Part shown: positions 25,401 through 27,341 of the stretch, piece by piece
Position numbering within the stretch: the stretch's first letter is position 1
How the letters are laid out: each line of letters opens with the position of its first letter
UHGV virus genome: UHGV-0144805
DNA from: a virus
Reading direction: 5' to 3' (one strand)
DNA: 31,052 nt
Made by a program: the position numbers

Positions 25401-27341
25401 ACCATTGGGATACATATTGTTTCGCTATGCTGGCGGATTATGTTCCCCAGGATGAAGTGCTTAGCGTCGAAGACGAAGCGCAGGTTGATGAAGCTCTGGC
25501 ATGGCTTAATGAATGAATATTTGCTCTAATAAATTGTGTTTTTTAGCTACCGATGTTACATTGAACCTGACCTCTTGCGCCTTGTGGCATTTTCGGTTTA
25601 TGCTTATCAGGCACCTCATTAAAACGGGTGCCGGGATTGGCCTCCCGCTTAAGTCTAAGGCGATACAGACGCCGCTCGCGTCTTTTTTTGTATCGGCGTA
25701 CACGCACACCTCTACAATGGTGGGCTGTATGGGGCTACCTTCGGGTAGGCTGGTTACCTTGGACGCCAGTAAGGCCAACTCCGTACAGTCCACCGCCAGC
25801 AAGATTGGTCTCTTCTGCGGTGGTTACATACCAACGTCTAAGGAGGCTGCCAATATGGCTACTATCCCTACCCCAACTCATCCTGAATTTATCTGGCGCT
25901 TTTACTCCTGCCAAAAACGTCACTATCACTTCGTTATTGCACCAACAGAAGATGAGGCCCGCTCTCAGCTTCCTGACGCCCCATGTATTTTCTCTGCCCG
26001 TTTTTCCACTGATTCACGCAATTCTCTCAGTTACTGGTGCCTCCCTGTTAACGCTTCTGCTCAGGAGGGACTATGAGAACGTCATTAGTCACCCGTGAAG
26101 AGATGATCGAGGCAATTGAACAGCACACTGCCTGTATCAGTACCAGGGATATACCAGGCGTTATTGCCAACTACTTCATGATCACCAAACAACTTTACCG
26201 GAGAAAGGACAAGAACGCGGTTCACCGTATCCTGTTGTCTGATATCCGCGAATACCTGCTCGAACAGGGTCATCTGAATTACGCAACCGTCGCAGCCGAA
26301 GCACGCAAGGAGGCACACAGAATGAAAGCAACTAACGTTAAATCAGAAAAAATTCATGCACCTTCAGTTCAGGAATCGGAGCTGGTGGTTGTTCAGAATC
26401 AGTCTGATGAAATTCCCGTTCTGGAATGGCAGGGAGTGCGTGTAGTGACAACCGAGACTCTTGCTAGAGGGTATGGGACAGAAACAATCCGTATTCGCCA
26501 AAATCATCATGAGAACAAAGTACGCTTTGTTGAAGGGAAGCACTTTTTCAAAGTTGAAGGAGAATCATTGCGCGAGTTGAAGCACAGAGTAGCTTTAAAC
26601 TACTCTGTAAAAATTGCTCGCAATGTTCGCTCACTCACCCTCTGGACAGAACGCGGCGCAGCCCGCCACGCTAAAATGCTCGAAACCGATCAGGCATGGG
26701 CATTCTTTGAAAAACTGGAAGACAGCTACTTCCGACAAAAAGAACAGCAACCGATCGCAATCCCCCAGACGCTTCCTGAAGCCCTACGCCTGGCTGCCGA
26801 ACTGGCTGAACAAAAGCAACTTCTGGAACAGAAAGCCCACCAGCTAAATCAGCAGCTGGTGGCCGCCGCTCCTAAAGTCGATTTTGCCGACCGGGTATCA
26901 GTAGCTAAAGGGATCCTGATTGGGAATTTTGCAAAGGTTGTTGGACTTAAGCAAAACGCGCTGTTTGTCTGGTTACGGGAGAACGGCATCCTGATAGCGT
27001 CCGGTGGACGTAAAAATGTGCCGTTCCAGCAGTACATCAACGCGGGGTATTTCACGGTGAAAGAAGTGGTGCTGGATGATGAAGATGGCTACCAGATACG
27101 GTTGACGCCTCAATTAACGGGTAAAGGCCAGCAGTGGTTGACGCGTAAACTGCTCGATGCTGGCTTGTTAAAACCGGTGGCAGCTGAATAAGGGGTCTGA
27201 CGCTCAGTGGAACGAAAACTCACGTTAAGGGATTTTGGTCATGAGATTATCAAAAAGGATCTTCACCTAGATCCTTTTAAATTAAAAATGAAGTTTTAAA
27301 TCAATCTAAAGTATATATGAGTAAACTTGGTCTGACAGTTA

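What the first reader, a model, noticed from the sequence alone, without database searches (positions are those of the whole stretch)
27189..27229. Tn3-family transposon end abuts the antirepressor stop codon exactly
The TAA of the ant-like ORF occupies 27189-27191 and the 38-bp inverted repeat begins at 27192. Either the transposon inserted just downstream of the native stop, or it inserted inside a longer gene and the present stop is fortuitous, truncating the antirepressor and separating it from downstream genes. Phage P7 is known to carry an ampicillin-resistance transposon (Tn902), so this may be a P7-like arrangement.
Basis: partly seen in the sequence, partly recalled or inferred. Interest (0 to 1): 0.55.

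Follow-up and report, generated by a model that had tools for sequence, protein, structure and literature searches.

The report
Tn1 ampicillin transposon beside intact antirepressor
A copy of the classic ampicillin-resistance transposon Tn1 (blaTEM-2) has landed in a P1-like phage-plasmid exactly after the natural stop codon of its antirepressor gene, leaving that gene whole; this is an ordinary way for such phages to pick up resistance genes.

Summary
ORF 26073-27191 ends with TAA at 27189-27191, and a perfect 38-bp Tn3-family inverted repeat starts at 27192. It is the only copy in the window.

The stop codon is native. The same 372-aa protein is widespread in public assemblies. In 15 of 15 uninterrupted relatives, ant is followed by the same 32-bp hairpin spacer and then the convergent c1 repressor gene. 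P1 Ant1 ends at the same alignment column, and the KilAC domain is complete.

The element is Tn1 (blaTEM-2). It differs from RP4's Tn1 at 2 of 3861 bases, against 98.0% identity to P7's transposon. P7's copy sits in ref, so this is not the P7 arrangement.

The most likely event is a simple Tn1 transposition into the AT-only pentamer AATAA, which contains the stop codon. Target duplication would keep ant intact. The native hairpin and c1 would then lie beyond the far end, expected at about 32140 and outside the window.

That far end and the duplication could not be seen. Neither junction exists in any collection searched.

Another P1-like plasmid carries an independent TEM transposon 154 bp upstream in the same gene, flanked by TACAT.

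Verdict: real, ordinary, and a new instance of a known kind.

The parts
25611..25688 (+). isrK-like leader RNA element upstream of c4, overlapping a weak c4-a1b1 target match
   Evidence: Rfam RF01394, 60.8 bits against a gathering score of 50. RF03163 scores 20.5 bits, below gathering.
25713..25800 (+). C4 antisense RNA gene of an immI-type immunity module
   Evidence: Rfam RF01695, 75.9 bits against a gathering score of 45, full length 1-87/87.
25855..26076 (+). icd-like gene, overlapping the ant start by 4 bp as in P1
   Evidence: Annotated 'host cell division inhibitor Icd-like protein' at the matching position in relatives.
26073..27191 (+). Complete antirepressor gene (Ant1-like, 372 aa). 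A likely internal Ant2-like start lies at 26322, the conserved Met84 preceded by AGGAGG.
   Evidence: Pfam ORF6N 116-202 and KilAC 260-361 (profile 2-106 of 108). 100% identical to full-length proteins of uninterrupted plasmids, and same end column as P1 Ant1. The exact protein is listed in 1064 blocks of the public collection.
27187..27191 (.). AATAA: the 5 bp flanking the transposon end. This is the predicted left copy of the target-site duplication and contains the ant stop codon.
   Evidence: Inference from the 5-bp duplications of the same elements elsewhere: TAAAA in RP4, TGAAA in P7, TACAT in L006/L007. The empty site reads GAATAA|TGGAAG.
27192..27229 (+). 38-bp terminal inverted repeat of Tn1, at the bla-proximal end (IRR)
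   Evidence: Perfect match and only copy in the window. Same sequence at both ends of the P7 transposon and of RP4 Tn1.
27253..27278 (.). 10-bp-stem hairpin between IRR and the bla stop (AAAAGGATCT-TCACCT-AGATCCTTTT). It is the first strong hairpin an ant transcript would now meet.
   Evidence: ViennaRNA fold. It was not flagged by the terminator scan. A terminator role is inference.
27339..28199 (-). blaTEM-2 (Q39K relative to TEM-1), transcribed towards ant
   Evidence: ORF. No base differs from RP4's gene, which is typed blaTEM-2 at 100%. Best plasmid hits are annotated TEM-2.
28382..28939 (-). tnpR resolvase gene
   Evidence: Coordinates transferred from the RP4 annotation. Protein identical to RP4's; the single difference at 28808 is synonymous.
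28940..29101 (.). tnpR-tnpA intergenic region holding the res site
   Evidence: Identical to RP4 Tn1. The position of res between tnpR and tnpA rests on established knowledge of Tn3-type elements.
29102..31052 (+). tnpA transposase gene: first 650 of 1001 codons, cut by the end of the window
   Evidence: Open frame with no stop. One substitution against RP4 (A at residue 640 here, P in RP4). In RP4 the gene and element run on to positions equivalent to 32107 and 32140.

Best explanation
A full Tn1 (about 4949 bp, blaTEM-2) transposed replicatively into a P1-like E. coli phage-plasmid. The target was the AT-only pentamer AATAA, formed by the last base pairs of the ant reading frame (GAA TAA). 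Tn3-family transposition duplicates its 5-bp target, so the left copy keeps the ant frame and its native stop intact, and the inverted repeat starts at the very next base. The right copy should be followed by TGGAAGAATGCCCGGTTGATGCCGGGCAT (the ant/c1 hairpin) and the convergent c1 repressor gene, beginning near 32141, outside the window. The consequences are small. The c4-icd-ant immunity module and, presumably, c1 stay intact. ant is cut off from its own hairpin terminator, and its transcripts run instead into the transposon end, where the hairpin downstream of bla lies about 60 bp in. The prophage gains ampicillin resistance. Shown here: the native stop, the intact Ant, the identity of the element as Tn1, the empty-site sequence and the gene order. 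Inferred: the second end, the AATAA duplication, c1 on the far side and the transcriptional effects.
For: The IR is perfect and starts at 27192. Over 3861 bp the element differs from RP4's Tn1 at 2 positions and carries blaTEM-2. RP4's Tn1 is 4949 bp and flanked by TAAAA. Uninterrupted relatives are identical up to the TAA and continue with the same 32-bp spacer and c1 in 15 of 15 loci. The spacer holds a 9-pair terminator-like hairpin. Ant is the same length as its homologues, ends at the same column as P1 Ant1 and has a complete KilAC domain. AATAA has 0% G+C within a region of about 50% G+C. Other duplications of these elements are likewise A+T-rich (TAAAA, TGAAA, TACAT), and Tn3-family elements are reported to insert in AT-rich DNA with 5-bp repeats (PMC4133298). 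An independent TEM transposon in the same gene of another P1-like plasmid is a simple insertion flanked by TACAT. Nothing from the c1 side of the empty site is displaced elsewhere in the window.
Against: The other end of the transposon, the duplication and c1 are all beyond the window, so a simple insertion is not demonstrated. Neither the observed left junction nor the predicted right junction occurs in the phage, plasmid or E. coli genome collections, or in the viral, genome or metagenome contig collections. No second sequence confirms the arrangement.
Confidence: 0.8

Rival explanations
1. The left junction was made by transposition, but the present structure is not a simple insertion. The far end of Tn1 might join other DNA because of a Tn1-mediated adjacent deletion or inversion, an unresolved cointegrate with the donor plasmid, or homologous recombination with another Tn1/Tn2 copy. 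In those cases c1 would be missing or moved.
For: The right end is unseen. No database record shows the predicted right junction. TEM transposons are present in most E. coli genomes (3136 of 5426), so partners for recombination are common.
Against: tnpR and the res region are identical in protein or sequence to functional RP4 Tn1, so cointegrates should resolve. The visible 3.86 kb is uniformly Tn1, with no mosaic. Loss of c1 would leave a P1-type prophage unable to stay repressed (established P1 biology). The comparable insertion in L006/L007 is simple.
Confidence: 0.15
2. The transposon inserted inside a longer antirepressor gene, and the TAA is a fortuitous stop that truncates the protein.
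For: None beyond the exact abutment itself.
Against: The TAA and everything before it are identical in uninterrupted relatives. The exact 372-aa protein is widespread, and 10 of 10 places read show it followed by c1. P1 Ant1 ends at the same column. The KilAC domain is complete.
Confidence: 0.01
3. The junction is an assembly artefact that joins a phage-plasmid contig to a transposon located elsewhere in the genome.
For: Tn1/Tn2/Tn3 copies are repeats that commonly break or mis-join assemblies. The junction is found in no other public sequence.
Against: The break falls exactly at the first base of the inverted repeat and at an AT-only pentamer, which is the signature of real transposition. Mis-joins arise inside shared repeat sequence, and ant shares none with Tn1. 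At most the interior of the element could be mis-assigned, not the junction.
Confidence: 0.04

Closest known systems
Tn1 of IncP-1alpha plasmid RP4/RP1 (blaTEM-2)
   Same: The 38-bp IR, blaTEM-2, tnpR, the res region and the tnpA N-terminus are all shared. 3859 of 3861 bases are identical, with the same gene order and orientation.
   Different: There are two base differences, one synonymous in tnpR and one changing tnpA residue 640. The location is new, in a P1-like phage-plasmid. The last 1088 bp or so are not visible.
Tn902 of phage P7 (called Tn2 with blaTEM-1b in PMC6906374)
   Same: It is a TEM transposon of the same Tn1/Tn2/Tn3 group, with an identical 38-bp IR, carried by a P1-type prophage plasmid as a simple insertion with a 5-bp duplication.
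   Different: It is only 98.0% identical over the shared 3.86 kb, which marks a different variant. It is inserted in ref at P7 2619-7568, extending Ref, with duplication TGAAA. That site is on the other side of c1, coi and cre from ant.
RCS47 / pO111_2 / pTZ20_1P-type P1-like phage-plasmids with an icd-ant module between pacB and c1
   Same: The backbone is shared: 97-98% identity over 25 kb, and the order phd-doc-pdcA-pdcB-lpa-pacA-pacB-c4-icd-ant. The extra ant between pacB and c1 is described in PMC6906374.
   Different: Those elements have ant directly followed by c1. Their resistance genes, where present (for example blaSHV-2 in RCS47), sit elsewhere.
Plasmid p1w5r2cvasu2 (NZ_JBRYZE020000002.1), a P1-like element with a TEM-1 transposon in ant
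   Same: The same gene is hit in the same orientation (bla antisense to ant), the IR is identical, and it is a simple insertion with a 5-bp duplication.
   Different: The insertion is 154 bp upstream, at TACAT, and disrupts the KilAC domain, so ant is a pseudogene there. It carries TEM-1 rather than TEM-2.

Membership tests
Tn3 family, Tn1/Tn2/Tn3 group (specifically Tn1) | 38-bp terminal inverted repeat GGGGTCTGACGCTCAGTGGAACGAAAACTCACGTTAAG at the element's end | tested here: met
   Perfect match at 27192-27229. The same sequence is at both ends of RP4 Tn1 and of the P7 transposon.
Tn3 family, Tn1/Tn2/Tn3 group (specifically Tn1) | Second, inverted copy of the repeat at the other end | not testable with these tools
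   It is expected near 32103-32140, but the window ends at 31052. No other record with this junction was found.
Tn3 family, Tn1/Tn2/Tn3 group (specifically Tn1) | 5-bp direct target-site duplication | not testable with these tools
   Only the left flank (AATAA) is visible. The prediction rests on the empty site GAATAA|TGGAAG.
Tn3 family, Tn1/Tn2/Tn3 group (specifically Tn1) | Divergent tnpA transposase and tnpR serine resolvase with res between them, and bla next to IRR | tested here: met
   Gene order and coordinates match the RP4 annotation. TnpR is identical, and TnpA residues 1-650 have one substitution and no stop.
Tn3 family, Tn1/Tn2/Tn3 group (specifically Tn1) | Tn1 variant: blaTEM-2 allele and near identity to the RP4 copy rather than to Tn2/Tn3 | tested here: met
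   2 differences in 3861 bp against RP4, compared with 98.0% identity to P7's copy. bla is identical to RP4's blaTEM-2.
P7-like arrangement (Tn902 in ref) | Same transposon variant at the same site as in P7 | tested here: not met
   P7's element lies at 2619-7568 inside ref with duplication TGAAA and is 98.0% identical.
P1-type immI antirepressor module (c4-icd-ant) | C4 antisense RNA gene upstream of icd and ant | tested here: met
   Rfam C4, 75.9 bits against a gathering score of 45, at 25713-25800.
P1-type immI antirepressor module (c4-icd-ant) | icd overlapping ant, and an Ant protein homologous to P1 Ant1/Ant2 over its full length, including the C-terminus | tested here: met
   There is a 4-bp overlap at 26073-26076. 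The protein is 60% identical to P1 Ant1 overall and nearly identical over the last 140 or so residues, with the same end column. Pfam finds ORF6N and KilAC.
P1-type immI antirepressor module (c4-icd-ant) | Ant antagonises the C1 repressor | not testable with these tools
   This is a biochemical or genetic property. It is known for P1 Ant1/Ant2 only, from the annotation.
P1-like phage-plasmid (Punavirus) | P1 gene order and high nucleotide identity across the backbone | tested here: met
   90-98% of 25 kb is covered at 97-99% identity in many E. coli plasmids. The order is dnaB, tail genes, phd-doc, pdcA, pdcB, lpa, pacA, pacB. RCS47 is classified in Punavirus.

The most novel reading that the evidence does not exclude
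The site may not be neutral. Placing Tn1 between the convergent ant and c1 genes removes their shared hairpin from ant and points bla transcription antisense into ant. This could damp antirepressor expression or uncouple ant/c1 transcriptional interference. The resistant prophage would then be more stably lysogenic, or its induction behaviour would change. A second independent TEM transposon in the same gene and the same orientation hints at a favoured or selected site.
Probability: 0.08. Interest if true: 0.4.

Novelty: new member of a known kind. Interest (0 to 1): 0.15.

Why it matters
It adds one more case of a transducing P1-like phage-plasmid carrying a beta-lactamase transposon. Here the cargo is the classic IncP-associated Tn1/blaTEM-2, and the position appears to leave the whole immunity circuitry (c4-icd-ant and c1) intact, so the element may still be a functional, ampicillin-resistance-converting phage. 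That is relevant for tracking resistance spread by phage-plasmids. It does not reveal a new mechanism.

Tried and rejected
- **Source record or a second copy of the left junction.** I searched megablast against phages, plasmids and complete E. coli genomes, and ran exact-pattern scans of viral, genome and metagenome contigs. Nothing was found.
- **Predicted right junction (Tn1 end + up to 12 nt + ant/c1 spacer).** I ran pattern scans and megablast with a synthetic 505-nt junction. No place covered both halves.
- **Exact Ant protein with a bla neighbour.** The look-up in public assemblies showed c1 next to ant in all 10 places.
- **Displaced c1-side DNA in the window.** I looked for it as a sign of rearrangement and found none.
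- **A terminator inside the transposon end.** The consensus scan did not flag the hairpin at 27253-27278. Only the fold shows it, so a substitute terminator for ant remains inference.
- **The 'TAAGGG' matches.** Some relatives match up to 27194. This is BLAST extending through a T/G mismatch (TAATGG against TAAGGG), not a different flank.
- **The P7 analogy.** Rejected after reading the P7 annotation.

Full report
**1. The observation**

The + strand ORF 26073-27191 (372 aa) ends ...GCA GCT GAA TAA, with the TAA at 27189-27191. The next base starts GGGGTCTGACGCTCAGTGGAACGAAAACTCACGTTAAG at 27192-27229. This 38-mer is the only match in the window even with 3 mismatches allowed, and none of 100 shuffles produced one. 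The same 38-mer bounds the transposon of phage P7 and Tn1 of RP4.

Behind the repeat lie:
- blaTEM (27339-28199, minus strand);
- tnpR (28382-28939, minus strand);
- the tnpR-tnpA intergenic region;
- tnpA (from 29102, plus strand), which runs off the window at 31052 with 650 codons and no stop.

**2. Is the stop native?**

Yes, on four lines of evidence.

- Megablast of 25500-27400 finds hundreds of E. coli P1-like plasmids and three phages that match up to window 27191 and no further. Matches reported to 27194 are BLAST extending TAA-TGG against TAA-GGG.
- In AP026465.1, which is 100% identical over the match, the annotated gene is the same 1119 nt. It is followed by TGGAAGAATGCCCGGTTGATGCCGGGCATAAT and then a convergent 852-nt gene, annotated elsewhere as phage repressor C1.
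- The exact 372-aa protein is listed in 1064 blocks of the public assembly collection. All 10 places read have ant followed 32 bp later by a C1-repressor gene, and the 32-bp spacer is identical in 15 of 15 relatives inspected.
- In a protein alignment, RCS47 Ant and P1 Ant1 end at the same column. Pfam places a complete KilAC domain at residues 260-361 (profile 2-106 of 108) and an ORF6N domain at 116-202.

**3. What the gene is part of**

Upstream of ant lie three linked features:
- an isrK-like element at 25611-25688 (60.8 bits against a gathering score of 50);
- a full-length C4 antisense RNA at 25713-25800 (Rfam, 75.9 bits against 45);
- an icd-like ORF at 25855-26076 that overlaps ant by 4 bp, as icd and ant1 do in P1.

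Met84, the Ant2 start in P1, is conserved and preceded by AGGAGG.

The rest of the window is a P1-like phage-plasmid backbone: dnaB, tail and baseplate genes, phd-doc, pdcA, pdcB, lpa, pacA, pacB. It is 97-99% identical over about 25 kb to many E. coli plasmids. An icd-ant module between pacB and c1 is a described feature of RCS47-type elements (PMC6906374).

Because c1 is convergent, ant has no downstream genes to be separated from.

**4. What the transposon is**

Over 3861 bp the element differs from Tn1 of RP4 at two positions. One is 28808, synonymous in tnpR. The other is 31019, which changes tnpA residue 640. Its bla is identical to RP4's, which is typed blaTEM-2 at 100%, and the best plasmid hits are annotated TEM-2.

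P7's transposon is only 98.0% identical. It is described as Tn2 with blaTEM-1b (PMC6906374). It lies at P7 2619-7568 inside ref, extending the Ref protein, and is flanked by TGAAA. So this is Tn1, not Tn902, and the site is different. The P7 comparison holds only in the general sense that both are P1-type prophages carrying a TEM transposon.

**5. Mechanism**

RP4's Tn1 is 4949 bp with a TAAAA duplication. By analogy the element here should end at 32140.

The 5 bp next to the IR are AATAA (27187-27191). This pentamer has 0% G+C in a stretch of about 50% G+C. All the other duplications read here are A+T-rich (TAAAA, TGAAA, TACAT), in line with the reported preference of Tn3-family elements for AT-rich targets with 5-bp repeats (PMC4133298).

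If AATAA was the staggered-cut target, its duplication explains two things. The ant frame and stop survive untouched, and the IR abuts the stop exactly.

The 32-bp ant/c1 spacer is almost entirely a 9-pair hairpin. Only a handful of positions would therefore spare ant, the hairpin and c1 together, and this is one of them. The 'exactness' needs no further explanation beyond target preference and survival of a repressor-proficient prophage.

After insertion the native hairpin stays on the c1 side. Transcripts from ant would enter the IR and meet the 10-bp-stem hairpin at 27253-27278, downstream of bla. The terminator scan did not flag this hairpin, so its function in that direction is inferred.

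**6. What is not shown**

The second IR, the duplication and c1 all lie beyond the window. Neither the observed nor the predicted junction occurs in any collection available.

A Tn1-mediated deletion or inversion, an unresolved cointegrate, or recombination with another TEM transposon therefore cannot be excluded. I give these 0.15 together. Arguments against them:
- tnpR and the res region are intact;
- the visible part of the element is uniformly Tn1;
- a plasmid prophage needs c1 to stay repressed;
- no c1-side DNA is displaced elsewhere in the window.

**7. An independent parallel**

Plasmid p1w5r2cvasu2 (NZ_JBRYZE020000002.1) has a TEM-1 transposon in the same ant gene. It lies 154 bp upstream, in the same orientation, with TACAT on both sides across the record's circular junction. 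There ant is a pseudogene. This shows that simple Tn3-type insertions into this locus do occur and are tolerated.

**8. Verdict**

The feature is real and fully explained by known biology. It is a new instance of a known transposon in a known kind of phage-plasmid, at a previously unrecorded site. Interest is low (0.15).

The only reading with some novelty is that the position between the convergent ant and c1 genes alters the immunity switch. It has no direct support (probability about 0.08).

Noticed in passing
window 25611-25800: An isrK-family RNA match (60.8 bits) lies directly upstream of a full C4 antisense RNA (75.9 bits). Both lie inside a mechanical 187-aa ORF (25513-26076) that some pipelines call an 'ash family protein'. 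The RNA annotation looks like the better reading of this stretch.
   Followed up: partly
L006 7139 / L007 1-5 (NZ_JBRYZE020000002.1): An independent TEM-1 transposon lies in the same ant gene of another P1-like plasmid, in the same orientation, with TACAT on both sides. The record is one C short of a full inverted repeat at its circularisation point, probably a trimming artefact.
   Followed up: yes
L010-L019, about 13200-14600 (downstream of ref in relatives): The slot after ref in related phage-plasmids holds alternative cargo genes, with RelA_SpoT, SIR2_2 or PIN_12/PIN_8 domains. This looks like a variable hotspot. It lies outside the window.
   Followed up: no
H155/H156 (NZ_CP122864.1, NZ_CP122848.1): Porcine ETEC plasmids show a Tn3-type transposon end next to a Ref-family nuclease gene. 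This is the true P7-like arrangement, and it circulates in field isolates.
   Followed up: no
window 1295-1370: A tRNA-Met (CAT) gene lies on the + strand near the start of the window, as expected for a P1-type genome.
   Followed up: no
window 31019: TnpA residue 640 is Ala here and Pro in RP4's Tn1. This is the only amino-acid difference in the visible part of the element, and its effect is unknown.
   Followed up: partly
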